From a virus, in IMG/VR virus record IMGVR_UViG_3300045988_101483: 41,242 nucleotides of DNA, one strand, 5' to 3'. A model generated the notes under the pieces. The model did no database searches, was not told the DNA's origin, and saw nothing but the letters and a program-made list of their open reading frames with translations. Position numbers and translations under genes: made by a program. Positions 1,463-3,740 of the stretch are shown here, piece after piece. Numbering within the stretch: the first letter of the stretch is position 1; the number at the start of each line of letters is the position of its first letter.

Positions 1463-1927
1463 ATGAATAAAAAATTGACATTTACAGTAACCGTTTTAGC
1501 AGGACTTATGTTTGGAGCCGGTGCAACCGCCATTGCCGACAATGTTTGGCAAGGTCACCAGAACATCGTGGAGACCAAAAACAATATCGACAAGCTGACG
1601 GCCAAGATCAACGCTTCACAGTCTAGCTTGTCCGATTTGCAACATCAGTTGTCTGACGCGCAGGCACAGTATGCGGCACTCAAACAGCAATACGACAACG
1701 GTATGGCAAGCAAGGACGCACAGATTCAGCAAAAGATCGTTGAAGGCCAGCAAGCAGTCGCCCAGAAACAGGCGGAGGTCGACGCTAAGCAGCATACAAT
1801 CAATGACCTTACATCACAGTTAGAAGCCGCCAAACAGGCAAACAATGGCTTATCACAGGCAATCAAAGACGCACAGAGCATCAAGGACTATTCCGATCAG
1901 GCTGTGAAGTCAGCAAATGCACATTAG
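1463..1927 (+). CDS. Secreted or membrane-anchored Q/A-rich coiled-coil protein.
   Basis: AAGGAG RBS. Signal-peptide-like N-terminus MNKKLTFTVTVLAGLMFGAGATAIA followed by a heptad-like Q/A/K-rich sequence. Confidence 0.7.
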   Translation: MNKKLTFTVTVLAGLMFGAGATAIADNVWQGHQNIVETKNNIDKLTAKINASQSSLSDLQHQLSDAQAQYAALKQQYDNGMASKDAQIQQKIVEGQQAVAQKQAEVDAKQHTINDLTSQLEAAKQANNGLSQAIKDAQSIKDYSDQAVKSANAH

Positions 1928-1937
1928 GGGGCCAATA

Positions 1938-2798
1938 ATGAGATCGCTTGAACTGTTTGCGGGAATTGGTGGCATCGCATTGGCTGAACAAATGGCTGGC
2001 ATTGAAGTGGCCGGTTTGTGTGAATACGCAGATTATCCGCGCGCGATTTTACAGAAGCACTGGCCAGATGTGCCCTTATTCAAGGATGTGAAGAAGCTTG
2101 ATCGAAAAGAACTCACAAACGCAGGAATCGACCCCGACTCAATTGACATTATTTCCGGAGGCTTCCCTTGCCAGCCTTTCAGCATCGCCGGGCACAGAAA
2201 AGGCACGGAAGATGACCGCGACCTCTGGCCAGAGATGTTTAGAATTATCAAGCAAATCTGGCCAACTTGGGTTGTTGGAGAAAATGTTGCTAACTTCGCA
2301 AATATGGAACTCGACCGCACGCTATCTGACTTGGAAGGCGCGGGCTACCAAGCGCGGTCATTTGTACTTCCAGCTTGTGCCGTCAATGCCCCACACCAGC
2401 GGCTTAGAACATTCATTGTGGCCCACGCCGACAGCAAGCGATACTTTTACCGCGAACCTGAAAAGCAGCCAGCAGAGGATAGGCAGTCGCCATTCAGTAA
2501 CGTTGCCACAAGCGGTGAGAATGTTTTGGCTAACTCCGACGGCAACAGACGGGAAAAGAGCAAGCCAGTTTTCAAGCAAAAGTTTAGCCAAAGGAAAAGT
2601 GAACGGGAACCTAGCACAACAAGTAGCACACCAGCAAAGTGGCAGCCTGAACCCAGCGTGGGTCGAGTGGCTGATGGGGTACCCAATCGGTTGGACAGAA
2701 TAAAAGCATTAGGCAATGCGGTAGTGCCACAGCAAATACTGCCGATATTTAAAGCAATCGTTCAAATTGAGGAGGCCAACCAATGGAGTCAGAAGTAG
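1938..2798 (+). CDS. DNA (cytosine-5)-methyltransferase, short phage type. The ORF track start of 1917 is probably too early.
   Basis: Motifs FAGIGG (I), GGFPCQPFS (IV), ENV (VI), QRLRTFIVA (VIII), and WQPEPSVGRVADGVPNRLDRIKALGNAVVPQ (C-terminal, X). AGGGGG RBS before the ATG at 1938. Confidence 0.9.
   Translation: MRSLELFAGIGGIALAEQMAGIEVAGLCEYADYPRAILQKHWPDVPLFKDVKKLDRKELTNAGIDPDSIDIISGGFPCQPFSIAGHRKGTEDDRDLWPEMFRIIKQIWPTWVVGENVANFANMELDRTLSDLEGAGYQARSFVLPACAVNAPHQRLRTFIVAHADSKRYFYREPEKQPAEDRQSPFSNVATSGENVLANSDGNRREKSKPVFKQKFSQRKSEREPSTTSSTPAKWQPEPSVGRVADGVPNRLDRIKALGNAVVPQQILPIFKAIVQIEEANQWSQK
2098..2703 (+). CDS. Candidate overprinted ORF in the +1 frame, lying entirely inside the C5-methyltransferase gene. 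The frame is open from 2092 to 2703.
   Basis: 204 stop-free codons. Contains WPTPTASD (2419-2442), WLTPTATD (2527-2550) and a C-terminal LNPAWVEWLMGYPIGWTE (2647-2700). The substitutions between the two WxTPTAxD copies are synonymous in this frame. The start is uncertain: TTG at 2098, or ATG at 2212 preceded by GAAAAGG. Confidence 0.45.
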   Translation: MIEKNSQTQESTPTQLTLFPEASLASLSASPGTEKARKMTATSGQRCLELSSKSGQLGLLEKMLLTSQIWNSTARYLTWKARATKRGHLYFQLVPSMPHTSGLEHSLWPTPTASDTFTANLKSSQQRIGSRHSVTLPQAVRMFWLTPTATDGKRASQFSSKSLAKGKVNGNLAQQVAHQQSGSLNPAWVEWLMGYPIGWTE

Positions 2799-2893: not shown

Positions 2894-2988
2894 GCGAAGC
2901 AATCTATTTTGGGTGGGGGAGTGCATGCGCGATATTCATCATGGTATTCAGTGATTCGGCATGGACAATCGGGAGGAAACAAGTATGA
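2890..2988 (+). CDS. Small hydrophobic peptide (32 aa).
   Basis: ATGA overlaps at both ends (2890 and 2985). Hydrophobic core AIYFGWGSACAIFIMVF. Confidence 0.4.
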   Translation: MSEAIYFGWGSACAIFIMVFSDSAWTIGRKQV

Positions 2989-3740
2989 AAGCAAAGTGCG
3001 AGCTCTACAACGACCACTTTCAGAACTTTAAGCGATACGGTATTCCAAAGGCACAGCTTGTGATTGCTGACATTCCTTACAACATTGGGAACAACGCCTA
3101 CGGGTCAAACCCAACTTGGTATGTTGGCGGGAACGACAAAAATGGCACTAGCAGTAAGGCTGGCAAGACGTTCTTCGATACAGACGTTGATTTCCGCGTT
3201 GCCGAGTTCATGCATTTTTGTAGTCACATGCTAGTCAAGGAACCAAAAGAGCGCGGAAAGGCACCAGCAATGATCGTGTTTTGCGCATTCCAACAGATGC
3301 AGATGGTTATCGAATATGGGAAGAAATACGGGTTCCAACACAGTTTTCCGCTGATATTCATCAAAAACCAGTCGGCACAGGCTCTGAAAGCCAACATGAG
3401 GATCGTGGGGGCTACCGAGTACGCCGTGGTCTTATACCGCGACAAGTTACCGAAGTTCAACAATGATGGGCAGATGGTATTCAACTGGTTCCGGTGGGAT
3501 ACGGACAGTACCTATCCTAAGATTCATCCCACACAGAAGCCTATCCCAGTGCTTAAAAGACTGATCGAGCTGTTCACCGATCAGGGTGACGTTGTGATCG
3601 ATCCGTGTGCTGGTAGTGGATCTACGCTAAGAGCGGCTGCGGAACTAGGCAGATCTTGTTTTGGGTTTGAAATTAAGAAGGATATGTACAGGCTTGCAAA
3701 AGAGAAAATGCTCAGCACCATGTCTTTGGCACTTCTGTAA
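2985..3740 (+). CDS. Beta-class amino DNA methyltransferase (N6-adenine or N4-cytosine, N6_N4_Mtase type).
   Basis: Motif IV-like DIPY, then HPTQKP, then motif I DPCAGSGST. This order is typical of the beta class. GGGAGGA RBS before the ATG at 2985. Confidence 0.85.
   Translation: MKAKCELYNDHFQNFKRYGIPKAQLVIADIPYNIGNNAYGSNPTWYVGGNDKNGTSSKAGKTFFDTDVDFRVAEFMHFCSHMLVKEPKERGKAPAMIVFCAFQQMQMVIEYGKKYGFQHSFPLIFIKNQSAQALKANMRIVGATEYAVVLYRDKLPKFNNDGQMVFNWFRWDTDSTYPKIHPTQKPIPVLKRLIELFTDQGDVVIDPCAGSGSTLRAAAELGRSCFGFEIKKDMYRLAKEKMLSTMSLALL

What the first reader, a model, noticed from the sequence alone, without database searches (positions are those of the whole stretch)
1917..2798. C5-methyltransferase gene that appears to be dual-coding: a 204-codon +1-frame ORF with its own conserved-looking motifs
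Frame A (1938-2798) is a complete short C5-MTase. It has FAGIGG, PCQ at 2166-2174, ENV at 2280-2288, QRLRTF from 2397, and WQPEPSVGRVADGVPNRLDRIKALGNAVVPQ at 2640-2732.

The +1 frame is stop-free from 2092 to 2703, and its translation is not junk:
- It contains WPTPTASD (2419-2442) and WLTPTATD (2527-2550).
- It contains HLYFQLVPSMPHTSGLEHSLWPTP.
- It ends LNPAWVEWLMGYPIGWTE (2647-2700).
I recognise these strings from the variable and C-terminal parts of long phage/ICE-type cytosine MTases.

Direct sequence evidence for selection on the +1 frame comes from the two WxTPTAxD copies. They differ at 7 of 24 nt. Three of those differences are third-position synonymous changes in the +1 frame (acg/act, aca/acg, gat/gac). 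Six of the seven differences change the frame-A product (AHADSKR vs LANSDGNR).

Frame A between about 2410 and 2640 is hydrophilic, low-complexity and linker-like. It has no recognisable target-recognition domain, which is what an overprinted partner would look like.

Strikingly, GRVADGVPNRLDR (frame A) and WVEWLMGYPIGWT (frame +1) are the same nucleotides read in two frames. Both resemble motifs conserved in MTase families.

There is a precedent from memory: M.EcoHK31I was reported to need two polypeptides, with the second encoded in an alternative frame inside the first gene.

Hypotheses: (a) a split MTase whose specificity or TRD subunit is overprinted inside the catalytic subunit gene; (b) a +1 frameshift isoform.
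Basis: partly seen in the sequence, partly recalled or inferred. Interest (0 to 1): 0.9.

Follow-up and report, generated by a model that had tools for sequence, protein, structure and literature searches.

The report
Two-subunit methylase encoded in overlapping frames
One stretch of this Lacticaseibacillus phage genome really does encode two proteins in two reading frames, the catalytic and the DNA-recognition parts of a cytosine methylase; this layout was described once in 1995 (M.EcoHK31I) and here proves to be conserved in thousands of phages and prophages.

Summary

- **Alpha.** Frame A (1938-2798) is a C5-cytosine methyltransferase with motifs I-VIII and X. Between VIII and X it has only an unconserved hydrophilic linker.
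- **Beta.** The +1 ORF (2098-2703, 201 aa) is a real gene. It matches phrog_1008 at E 4.5e-34, and its profile finds 37,272 protein clusters.
- **Nesting.** In 165 independent loci with both readings, from many phyla, beta always lies in frame alpha+1. It is nested in an intact alpha in about 148.
- **Selection on both frames.** Synonymous-site identity in alpha is 0.59-0.69 inside the overlap and 0.35-0.36 outside. Identity of the +1 reading is 0.47 against 0.26 expected. Stops in the +1 frame number 4 against 242 expected. Stops in the alpha frame across the linker number 0 against 372 expected.
- **Function of beta.** Beta residues 106-200 align with the variable region plus motif IX of a single-chain phage methylase (E 2.3e-10). 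That segment is swapped as a cassette between this phage and Lc-Nu.

The best reading is a heterodimeric methylase of the M.EcoHK31I type: alpha is the catalytic domain and beta is the target-recognition domain plus motif IX. This makes it a new member of a known kind. The scale of the family and the placement of the recognition domain in beta appear not to be described in the papers I could search. A frameshift isoform is not supported.

The parts
1927..1931 (+). Shine-Dalgarno-like GGGGG, 6 nt before the alpha start codon
   Evidence: Read directly from the sequence. Annotated relatives Lc-Nu ORF40 and R9.1 start at the same MRSLELF.
1938..2798 (+). Alpha gene (286 aa): C5-cytosine methyltransferase catalytic subunit with motifs I-VIII, a linker, a pre-X motif and motif X
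   Evidence: Pfam PF00145 E 1.3e-40, covering profile positions 1-220 of 324 only. TIGR00675 E 9.5e-32. phrog_363 E 6.5e-85. Aligns to M.HhaI residues 13-169.
2082..2086 (+). Possible Shine-Dalgarno sequence (AAGGA) for beta, 11 nt before TTG 2098
   Evidence: Read from the sequence. 38 of 56 relatives with a scorable start have a Shine-Dalgarno-like motif before the beta start, many of them AGGAG or GGAGG at 7-9 nt. This is an inference for the window.
2098..2703 (+). Beta gene (201 aa from TTG 2098; frame open from 2092; alternative start ATG 2212 would give 163 aa), nested in alpha in the +1 frame
   Evidence: phrog_1008 E 4.5e-34. 1,481 homologs at E<=1e-3. 37,272 representative clusters. 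Nested in frame alpha+1 in all 165 loci where both readings were found.
2098..2412 (+). Beta N-terminal domain (residues 1-105), overprinted on alpha motifs IV-VIII (PCQ 2166-2174, ENV 2280-2288, QRLRTF 2397-2414)
   Evidence: The +1 reading is 0.47 identical across 60 diverged homologs, against 0.26 +/- 0.002 expected from alpha constraint alone. It has 4 stops against 242 expected. Same-codon-given-same-residue is 0.59 here and 0.35 in the non-overlapping N-terminus of alpha.
2413..2637 (+). Beta target-recognition region (residues 106-180) with two W-x-T-P-T-A-x-D repeats (2419-2442, 2527-2550). In frame A the same bases encode a hydrophilic, unconserved linker.
   Evidence: Beta identity is 0.35 and alpha identity 0.20 on the same bases. 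This part of the beta profile aligns to the variable region of single-chain ShiLan gp70. The number of repeats varies from 2 to about 10 among relatives.
2442..2671 (+). Cassette replaced by unrelated sequence in phage Lc-Nu, while both flanks are about 90-91% identical
   Evidence: blastn of the window against Lc-Nu: 1926-2441 and 2672-2773 match at 90-91%, and nothing matches between them. Lc-Nu still keeps both frames open.
2647..2700 (+). Beta motif IX (LNPAWVEWLMGYPIGWTE). The same bases in frame A encode part of the pre-X motif (PEPSVGRVADGVPNRLDR).
   Evidence: Beta identity is 0.73 and alpha identity 0.55 on these bases. Same-codon fraction is 0.69. hhalign places this stretch on motif IX of M.HhaI (residues 266-289), but weakly, E 0.16. 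It also aligns to the corresponding part of ShiLan gp70.
2697..2732 (+). Alpha motif X (RIKALGNAVVPQ)
   Evidence: Read from the sequence. Conserved in all intact alpha homologs.
2961..3740 (+). Neighbouring second orphan methyltransferase (N6/N4 type). This is context, not part of the overlapping pair.
   Evidence: Pfam PF01555 E 3.9e-23.

Best explanation
The region encodes a heterodimeric C5-cytosine DNA methyltransferase from two overlapping genes on the same strand.

- **Alpha (1938-2798)** is the AdoMet-binding and catalytic large domain. Motifs I-VIII and motif X are joined by a roughly 70-residue flexible linker that stands where a single-chain enzyme has its small domain.
- **Beta (2098-2703, frame +1)** is translated independently from an internal start inside alpha. 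It supplies an N-terminal domain (probably the part that binds alpha), the target-recognition region built from W-x-T-P-x-A-x-D repeats, and motif IX.
- **Assembly.** The two polypeptides assemble into the active enzyme.
- **Role.** The enzyme, together with the neighbouring N6/N4 methylase, most likely protects phage DNA from host restriction.

What is shown:
- both frames are under purifying selection;
- the nesting and the frame offset are conserved;
- the C-terminal half of beta is homologous to the variable region plus motif IX of a single-chain enzyme;
- that half is swapped as a cassette.

What is inferred:
- separate translation from TTG 2098;
- physical association of the two proteins;
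- a requirement for both proteins for activity (by analogy with the published M.EcoHK31I experiments);
- the anti-restriction role.
For: 1. Beta is a real protein family.
- phrog_1008 at E 4.5e-34.
- 1,481 homologs at 35-60% identity.
- 37,272 representative clusters at E<=1e-3 and 20,002 at E<=1e-10.

2. The nesting is conserved.
- Beta lies in frame alpha+1 in 85 of 85 loci of the first set.
- It lies in the same frame in 80 of 80 genome loci, 77 of them nested in an intact alpha.
- These loci come from Bacillota, Pseudomonadota, Bacteroidota, Planctomycetota, CPR bacteria and other groups.

3. The beta frame is under selection.
- Same-codon-given-same-residue in alpha is 0.59 and 0.69 inside the overlap, against 0.35 and 0.36 in the non-overlapping ends of the same genes.
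- Identity of the +1 reading is 0.47, against 0.26 +/- 0.002 simulated.
- Stops in the +1 frame number 4, against 242 expected.

4. The alpha frame is under selection across the linker.
- There are 0 stops against 372 expected.
- The chance of an open frame is 0.066 per locus, yet the frame is open in about 148 of 165 loci.

5. Beta carries the recognition module.
- Beta profile positions 99-196 align to residues 237-351 of single-chain ShiLan gp70 with probability 96.8% and E 2.3e-10.
- Read directly from gp70, those residues lie between motif VIII and motif X.
- Beta is the better conserved reading of the second half: 0.35 against 0.20, and 0.73 against 0.55.
- Bases 2442-2671 are swapped between this phage and Lc-Nu.

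6. Beta has its own start.
- 50 of 56 scorable relatives use an ATG 18-24 codons before the conserved PGSxEA motif.
- 38 of the 56 have a Shine-Dalgarno-like sequence.

7. There is an experimental precedent.
- M.EcoHK31I beta is encoded entirely in another frame of the alpha gene.
- Removing the beta start codons silently in the alpha frame abolishes methylation in vivo, and supplying beta in trans restores it (PMC2836561, PMC3404938).

8. Annotators of Paenibacillus phages already list the nested gene, for example Sitara gp60, 'g59 internal gene'.
Against: - There is no expression, protein or methylation data for this phage.
- The window's beta start is a TTG with a weak, distant Shine-Dalgarno-like sequence. 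An ATG present in close relatives is ACG here, so the true N-terminus is uncertain (2098 or 2212).
- Beta has no Pfam, NCBIfam or PDB sequence match.
- AlphaFold2 models of beta alone were of low confidence: pLDDT 58.8 and 63.3. The Foldseek search gave nothing.
- The direct profile match of beta to motif IX of M.HhaI is weak: E 0.16 and 0.1.
- Pfam PF00145 does not extend into the beta-derived part of an artificial hybrid.
- Sequence homology to M.EcoHK31I itself could not be tested.
- The published assignment for M.EcoHK31I puts the recognition domain in alpha, which differs from what is seen here.
Confidence: 0.85

Rival explanations
1. Programmed ribosomal frameshifting makes one chain. 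The ribosome would shift +1 after motif VIII into the beta frame and then -1 back before motif X, giving a canonical single-chain enzyme like ShiLan gp70. On this view the +1 ORF is not translated on its own.
For: - A single chain in the order I-VIII, PTP repeats, IX, X exists naturally in ShiLan gp70.
- Proteins that fuse the alpha N-terminus to the beta C-terminus are on record for close relatives: P0003, P0015 and P0016.
Against: - The beta frame is open and selected for about 100 codons upstream of any useful shift site.
- Beta has its own start codon and Shine-Dalgarno-like sequence in most relatives.
- The three fusion proteins join at three different positions, as expected from indels or assembly errors rather than from one programmed site.
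- Alpha FIVAHADSK and beta LWPTPTASD share nucleotides, so one chain cannot contain both.
- Two shifts in opposite directions would be needed, and I saw no candidate slippery site on inspection (no systematic scan was run).
- In M.EcoHK31I the two separately expressed polypeptides suffice (PMC2836561).
Confidence: 0.04
2. The +1 ORF is a by-product. On this view it stays open and looks conserved only because alpha is conserved and its amino-acid composition disfavours +1 stops.
For: - With alpha fixed, the mean longest +1 open stretch is already about 100 codons.
- The window-only probability is 0.2-0.9%, which is not astronomically small.
- A by-product identity of 0.26 is expected in the region of motifs IV-VIII.
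Against: - Observed +1 identity is 0.47 against 0.26 +/- 0.002.
- Stops number 4 against 242 expected across 60 diverged genes.
- Synonymous sites in alpha are constrained only inside the overlap.
- In the second half beta is better conserved than alpha on the same bases.
- Beta there is homologous to an in-frame part of a single-chain methylase.
Confidence: 0.01
3. Beta is a real, separately made protein, but it is not a methylase subunit. It could be, for example, a regulator of alpha, an anti-defence protein or a DNA-binding factor with its own role.
For: - Beta's N-terminal 100 residues have no detectable relative of known function.
- No structure could be assigned.
Against: - Beta's C-terminal half is homologous to the variable region plus motif IX of a single-chain C5 methylase.
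- Alpha lacks exactly those parts.
- In some relatives motif X follows motif IX in the beta frame and alpha stops after motif VIII, which makes sense only if the two form one enzyme.
- M.EcoHK31I gives an experimental precedent (PMC2836561).
Confidence: 0.07
4. The arrangement is a decaying gene or a sequencing artefact: two compensating indels in a formerly single-frame methylase gene.
For: - Individual relatives do carry lesions. An E. coli prophage copy is flagged 'internal stop' by PGAP.
- L017 and L069 each have a stop in the alpha linker.
Against: - The same arrangement, with the same frame offset, recurs in 165 independent loci at 33-60% protein identity.
- Both frames show purifying selection.
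Confidence: 0.01

Closest known systems
M.EcoHK31I (E. coli HK31, target YGGCCR; Lee, Kam and Shaw 1995, as described in PMC2836561 and PMC3404938)
   Same: - It is a C5-cytosine methylase made of two polypeptides.
- Beta is encoded entirely inside the alpha gene in another reading frame.
[quoted passage not shown]
- The sizes are similar: alpha 309 aa and beta 176 aa as I recall them (not checked in a held paper), against 286 and 201 here.
   Different: - M.EcoHK31I belongs to a restriction-modification system, whereas this is an orphan phage methylase next to a second methylase.
- The published account places the predicted target-recognition domain of M.EcoHK31I in alpha. Here alpha has only an unconserved linker, and the recognition-domain homology lies in beta.
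M.AquI (two-subunit C5 methylase; PMC3404938)
   Same: - It is a natural heterodimer split within the variable region.
- A minority of relatives of this gene have this split: alpha stops after motif VIII, and beta carries the recognition region, motif IX and motif X. These are L027, L056, L074, L098 and P0138.
   Different: - In the window, motif X is in the alpha frame, not in beta.
- PMC3404938 does not describe the M.AquI subunit genes as nested, whereas here beta lies wholly inside alpha.
- Even the AquI-like relatives still overprint the beta N-terminal domain on alpha motifs IV-VIII.
Single-chain phage C5 methylases such as Mycobacterium phage ShiLan gp70
   Same: - The catalytic motifs are the same.
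- The same P-T-P-x-A-x-D repeats and the same motif IX (SEWMMGWPAGW) are present. Alignment with the beta profile gives E 2.3e-10.
   Different: - In ShiLan gp70 everything is in one frame and one polypeptide.
- ShiLan still has a 138-aa +1 ORF resembling the beta N-terminal domain. Its status is unknown.
Paenibacillus larvae phage methylase pairs (for example Sitara gp59 and gp60, 'g59 internal gene')
   Same: They are true homologs with the same nested arrangement; beta is about 43% identical.
   Different: - They are already annotated as two genes in about half of the records.
- The genome paper I read says nothing about the nested gene (PMC6070908).
- They have a longer alpha in which the pre-X motif is encoded separately from beta motif IX.

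Membership tests
M.EcoHK31I-type two-polypeptide C5 methyltransferase | The small subunit is encoded entirely within the large-subunit gene, on the same strand, in another reading frame | tested here: met
   Beta 2098-2703 lies inside alpha 1938-2798 in frame +1. The same holds in about 148 of 165 related loci.
M.EcoHK31I-type two-polypeptide C5 methyltransferase | The large subunit carries motifs I-VIII and X but not IX | tested here: met
   FAGIGG, PCQ, ENV, QRLRTF and LGNAVVPQ were read in frame A. Pfam PF00145 covers only profile positions 1-220 of 324. No motif IX-like string is present in alpha.
M.EcoHK31I-type two-polypeptide C5 methyltransferase | The small subunit carries motif IX | tested here: met
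   The beta profile aligns with the variable region plus motif IX of single-chain ShiLan gp70 at E 2.3e-10. The only alignment of beta to M.HhaI falls on its motif IX (residues 266-289), but it is weak: E 0.16 and 0.1.
M.EcoHK31I-type two-polypeptide C5 methyltransferase | Both polypeptides are required for methylation | not testable with these tools
   Only the published M.EcoHK31I experiments bear on this (PMC2836561). It needs expression of alpha with and without beta.
M.EcoHK31I-type two-polypeptide C5 methyltransferase | Sequence homology to M.EcoHK31I alpha and beta themselves | not tested
   The original paper (PMC306636) is not held, and no sequence was reachable.
M.EcoHK31I-type two-polypeptide C5 methyltransferase | The target-recognition domain is located in the large subunit (as published for M.EcoHK31I) | tested here: not met
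   The alpha linker is 0.14-0.20 identical among homologs, whereas the beta reading of the same bases is 0.19-0.35 identical and contains the conserved repeats. The homology to a recognition region lies in beta.
C5 cytosine-specific DNA methylase (Pfam PF00145 / TIGR00675) | Significant match above the curated cut-off | tested here: met
   Alpha scores 140.3 bits against a cut-off of 22. For TIGR00675 it scores 110.9 bits against a cut-off of 100.65. Beta has no match.
M.AquI-type split C5 methyltransferase | The second subunit carries the distal variable region plus motifs IX and X | tested here: not met
   In the window, motif X (2697-2732) is in the alpha frame and beta stops at 2703. The feature is met in relatives L027, L056, L074 and L098 and in P0138.
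PHROG 1008 ('DNA methyltransferase') | Profile match | tested here: met
   Beta matches at E 4.5e-34; residues 9-163 align to profile positions 29-179 of 329.

The most novel reading that the evidence does not exclude
The M.EcoHK31I layout may not be a one-off curiosity. It may be the standard architecture of a very large, cross-phylum family of phage and prophage C5 methylases.

- **Size.** The beta profile finds 37,272 clusters at 50% identity.
- **Dual coding.** About 600 nt are dual-coded, and both frames are under selection.
- **Specificity module.** The module (an array of 2 to about 10 P-T-P-x-A-x-D repeats plus motif IX) lies in the overprinted frame.
- **Cassette exchange.** The module is exchanged as a cassette between phages.
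- **Frame changes in evolution.** The module has moved between frames, giving nested, AquI-like and single-chain forms.
- **Possible multispecificity.** The variable repeat number could mean multispecific recognition, as in the tandem recognition domains of Bacillus phage methylases. This last point is speculation from memory and was not tested.

No paper in the searchable library describes any of this, and curated libraries (Pfam, NCBIfam) have no model for beta.
Probability: 0.5. Interest if true: 0.7.

Novelty: new member of a known kind. Interest (0 to 1): 0.55.

Why it matters
**Annotation.** Standard pipelines call only one of the two genes. The alpha gene is labelled as a complete methylase although it lacks a recognition domain. 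Beta is dropped or labelled 'hypothetical'. Any prediction of phage methylation specificity from alpha alone will therefore be wrong for this family.

**Overlapping genes.** This is a long (606 nt) same-strand overlap with strong, measurable selection on both frames in many independent lineages. That makes it a good natural test set for methods that detect overlapping genes.

**Methylase biology.** A 2012 paper (PMC3404938) counted two-polypeptide C5 methylases as two exceptions. The data here suggest they are common in phages, and that the split follows the structural domains: the large domain in alpha and the small domain in beta.

**Engineering.** The cassette-like recognition subunit could be useful for building split methylases.

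Tried and rejected
- **AlphaFold2 of beta alone.** I ran it with 34 and then 117 aligned homologs. Mean pLDDT was 58.8 and 63.3, and pTM 0.26 and 0.27. Foldseek against the PDB gave no match at E<=0.001. No structural conclusion is drawn.
- **Artificial hybrid.** I joined alpha 1-163, beta 106-201 and alpha 253-286 and scanned the result. Pfam and PDB sequence searches matched only up to motif VIII, so these libraries cannot confirm motifs IX or X here.
- **Curated libraries.** A profile search of beta against PDB sequences gave 0 hits at E<=10. NCBIfam and Pfam also gave none.
- **Original literature.** The original M.EcoHK31I paper and the supplement of PMC2836561 are not held, so direct homology to M.EcoHK31I stays untested.
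- **Literature searches.** Searches found no description of the family-wide nesting. The Paenibacillus phage genome paper does not discuss it. The ShiLan 'hidden HNH' paper concerns a different out-of-frame insertion.
- **Window versus R9.1.** In the overlap there are 15 substitutions silent in alpha only, 8 silent in beta only, 1 silent in both and 1 silent in neither. All but one fall in 2106-2405, which points to mosaic ancestry, so I did not use the comparison as a selection test.
- **Rejected explanations.** I rejected chance or by-product, pseudogene or artefact, and a frameshift isoform; see the rival explanations.
Full report
**1.

The window is the early region of a Lacticaseibacillus siphophage related to Lc-Nu.

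Frame A:
- It runs from ATG 1938, which follows a GGGGG Shine-Dalgarno-like sequence at 1927-1931, to the stop at 2796-2798.
- It reads FAGIGG, PCQ (2166-2174), ENV (2280-2288), QRLRTF (2397-2414) and WQPEPSVGRVADGVPNRLDRIKALGNAVVPQ (2640-2732).

The +1 frame:
- It is open from 2092 to TAA 2701-2703, and the first start codon is TTG 2098.
- It reads WPTPTASD (2419-2442), WLTPTATD (2527-2550) and LNPAWVEWLMGYPIGWTE (2647-2700).

All of this was reproduced.

Within this window alone the open +1 frame is only moderately unusual. I held the alpha protein fixed and resampled its synonymous codons. The longest +1 open stretch then averaged about 100 codons, and it reached 204 codons in 0.2-0.9% of 20,000 trials.

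**2. Frame A is a methylase without a recognition domain**

- Alpha matches Pfam PF00145 (E 1.3e-40), but only over profile positions 1-220 of 324.
- It also matches TIGR00675 and phrog_363.
- It aligns with M.HhaI residues 13-169, that is, up to motif VIII.
- Between motif VIII and the pre-X motif there are about 70 hydrophilic residues. Among 101 non-redundant homologs these are only 0.14-0.20 identical, and they are heavily gapped.

**3. The +1 ORF is a real protein family**

- Beta matches phrog_1008 ('DNA methyltransferase') at E 4.5e-34.
- It has 1,481 homologs at E<=1e-3 in the clustered protein database. Most are 190-350 aa long, carry no Pfam domain and are named 'hypothetical'.
- A profile of 34 of these homologs finds 37,272 representative clusters at E<=1e-3, 20,002 at E<=1e-10 and 2,375 at E<=1e-30 among 1.84 billion representatives.
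- Beta has no match in Pfam, NCBIfam or PDB sequences.

The family alignment shows three parts:
- a well conserved N-terminal domain of about 100 residues (QLTLFP...PGSxEARKMTxTSG...W.ST..LTWK...);
- a variable number of [WFY]-x-T-P-x-A-x-D repeats;
- a nearly invariant C-terminus, GGQLNPxWVEWLMGFPxGWTDL.

**4. These homologs are nested in methylase genes in the same way**

- The first two contexts I opened were an NCBI genome (L001) and an ENA scaffold (L002). Their beta proteins are 48% and 56% identical to the window's. Both show beta inside an intact alpha ORF in frame +1. In L002 alpha is 460 aa and beta 341 aa, and both frames stay open through a much longer middle region.
- Scans with the beta alignment confirmed relatives in at least 593 viral contigs and at least 474 species genomes.
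- Of the first 86 loci examined, 85 contained both readings. In all 85 beta lies in frame alpha+1.
- In the 80 genome loci beta is again always in frame alpha+1, and 77 have beta nested in an alpha that carries both its N-terminal and C-terminal motifs.
- The hosts span Bacillota, Pseudomonadota, Bacteroidota, Chlorobiota, Planctomycetota, Verrucomicrobiota, Actinomycetota and CPR bacteria, plus one archaeal MAG.
- Among isolated phages in GenBank the family is rare: 68 of 50,697 records, 54 of them Paenibacillus phages. About half of those records already annotate both genes, for example Sitara gp60, 'g59 internal gene'.

**5. Both frames are under selection**

I used 60 alpha genes that are less than 80% identical to each other.

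| Measure | Inside the overlap | Comparison value |
|---|---|---|
| Two sequences with the same alpha residue also use the same codon (alpha 58-165) | 0.59 | 0.35 in non-overlapping alpha 1-52 |
| Same measure (alpha 233-254) | 0.69 | 0.36 in non-overlapping alpha 257-286 |
| Identity of the +1 reading over alpha 58-165 | 0.47 | 0.26 +/- 0.002 after resampling synonymous codons |
| Stops in the +1 frame over alpha 58-165 | 4 | 242 expected |

So the beta N-terminal domain is more than an echo of alpha motifs IV-VIII.

The reciprocal test held beta fixed and resampled its codons across the recognition region.
- It predicts 372 alpha-frame stops in 117 loci, and none is observed.
- These loci were chosen because they were nested, so the zero is partly by construction.
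- The fair comparison is this: the chance of an open alpha frame is 0.066 per locus, yet about 148 of 165 loci have it open.
- So read-through of alpha to motif X is itself selected.

On the same nucleotides, alpha is the better conserved reading in the first half (0.60 against 0.49). Beta is the better conserved reading in the second half (0.35 against 0.20 over the repeats, and 0.73 against 0.55 over motif IX).

**6. What beta contributes**

- The beta profile (positions 99-196, corresponding to window residues 106-200) aligns with residues 237-351 of Mycobacterium phage ShiLan gp70 with probability 96.8% and E 2.3e-10.
- gp70 is a single-chain C5 methylase. LLPTPSAADG-type repeats and SEWMMGWPAGW lie in one frame between motif VIII and IIGNGVVPQ.
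- Beta's C-terminal two-thirds is therefore homologous to the variable (target-recognition) region plus motif IX.
- The only alignment of the beta profile to M.HhaI falls on HhaI motif IX (residues 266-289), but it is weak (E 0.16). A second profile built from the beta-X proteins gave the same placement at E 0.1.
- Between this phage and Lc-Nu the flanks 1926-2441 and 2672-2773 are 90-91% identical, while 2442-2671 is unrelated. Lc-Nu still keeps both frames open and has its own motif IX, EFQETMMGFPKGWTDL. This looks like a swap of a recognition cassette. It has meaning only in the beta frame, because alpha has no conserved feature there.

**7. The two superimposed motifs**

- In longer relatives (L002, Sitara L003, L056) a pre-X motif of the form EP..R[IV]..G[IV]..RV.RLK.LGNAV.P is encoded downstream of, and separately from, beta motif IX.
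- So both peptides are conserved independently.
- In the short form found here the two coincide. This fits the highest codon constraint in the gene, 0.69.

**8. Variants that tie the architecture to known ones**

- In L027, L056, L074, L098 and protein P0138, alpha stops right after motif VIII. Beta continues through motif IX, the pre-X motif and motif X in one frame. This is the M.AquI type of split (PMC3404938), but the beta N-terminal domain is still overprinted on alpha.
- ShiLan gp70 is the single-chain form.
- L017 and L069 each have one stop in the alpha linker.
- These forms differ by frame changes within or next to the recognition region. I did not determine the direction of change.

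**9. Comparison with what is known**

- Two papers confirm the precedent for M.EcoHK31I. [quoted passage not shown] - Removing the beta start codons silently abolishes methylation in vivo, and beta supplied in trans restores it. The first 42 residues of beta are dispensable in vitro (PMC2836561; also PMC3404938).
- PMC3404938 states that M.AquI and M.EcoHK31I are the exceptions among otherwise monomeric characterised C5 methylases.
- The window's gene meets the architectural definition. It differs in one point: the published account assigns the recognition domain of M.EcoHK31I to alpha.
- I could not obtain the M.EcoHK31I sequence, so common ancestry with it is untested.
- Six full-text searches found no description of the family-wide nesting. 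The library holds open-access papers only, so this is not proof that none exists.

**10. Mechanism, with confidence**

The most likely mechanism (0.85) is as follows.
- Alpha and beta are translated separately from one mRNA.
- Beta starts at TTG 2098, or possibly at ATG 2212, which has AAAGG 8 nt upstream.
- Alpha folds as the catalytic large domain, with motif X brought back by a flexible linker.
- Beta forms the small domain and docks on alpha.
- Recognition specificity resides in beta.

Items 3 to 6 above are shown. Separate initiation in this phage, the physical complex, the requirement for both proteins and the anti-restriction role are inferred.

A frameshift isoform is unlikely (0.04).
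- The upstream part of beta is selected.
- Beta has its own start signals in most relatives.
- The end of motif VIII and the first repeat share bases.
- The alpha-beta fusion proteins recorded for close relatives join at three different points.

**11. What did not work**

- AlphaFold2 of beta alone gave low confidence twice, and Foldseek gave nothing.
- Pfam and PDB sequence profiles do not reach motif IX or X, even in an artificial hybrid.

**12. Verdict**

It is a new member of a known but little-known kind. The added value is its scale and the evidence that the recognition domain sits in the overprinted frame.

Noticed in passing
window 2961-3740: A second orphan DNA methyltransferase (N6/N4 type, Pfam PF01555 E 3.9e-23) lies directly downstream of the C5 pair. 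The phage therefore carries a two-methylase block with no nuclease seen between them.
   Followed up: partly
window 2442-2671 versus Lc-Nu (L004 about 1505-1668): A cassette swap. The flanks are 90-91% identical to phage Lc-Nu, but this 230-nt core is unrelated, and both reading frames stay open in both phages.
   Followed up: yes
L005 (phage J-1) 1501-1956; window 1762-2160: Phages J-1 and PL-1 share only the first 223 nt or so of the methylase gene. They annotate a 151-aa 'cytosine-specific methyltransferase', probably a truncated or recombined remnant.
   Followed up: no
L168 (Mycobacterium phage ShiLan) 1612-2781 and 1838-2254: gp70 is a single-chain relative with the repeats, motif IX and motif X in one frame. 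It still has a 138-aa +1 ORF resembling the beta N-terminal domain plus two P-T-P repeats (hhalign E 1.3e-6). Identity over the part overlapping motifs IV-VIII is only at the by-product level (26%), so it may be a relic or a gene.
   Followed up: partly
L086 (E. coli PCP07014 prophage) 1867-2647: A prophage dcm flagged 'internal stop' by PGAP carries a different beta-like +1 reading that starts 4 nt after the alpha start. It reads ...SWKTHRCLFE / LPKWGMTRNG...WTTPSASD...LNPEWVEWLMGWPIGWTEL. This suggests a second subfamily of nested partners in enterobacterial prophages.
   Followed up: partly
L017 1077-2132 and L069 94-951: Two viral contigs have a single in-frame stop in the alpha linker, which separates motifs I-VIII from motif X, while beta stays intact. 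This could be decay, a sequencing error or a three-piece variant.
   Followed up: no
L027, L056, L074, L098; protein P0138: In these relatives alpha ends right after motif VIII, and beta carries the recognition region, motif IX and motif X in one frame. This is an M.AquI-like split that still overlaps alpha motifs IV-VIII.
   Followed up: yes
window 1463-1927: The ORF upstream of alpha starts with a hydrophobic, possibly signal-peptide-like stretch (MNKKLTFTVTVLAGLMFGAGATAIA; read by eye, no predictor run). The rest gives only weak coiled-coil-type Pfam hits. It ends at TAG 1925-1927, 10 nt before the alpha start.
   Followed up: no
proteins P0003, P0015, P0016 (close Lacticaseibacillus relatives): Database proteins fuse the alpha N-terminus to the beta C-terminus at three different junctions. 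They are most likely single-base indels or assembly errors in those records.
   Followed up: partly
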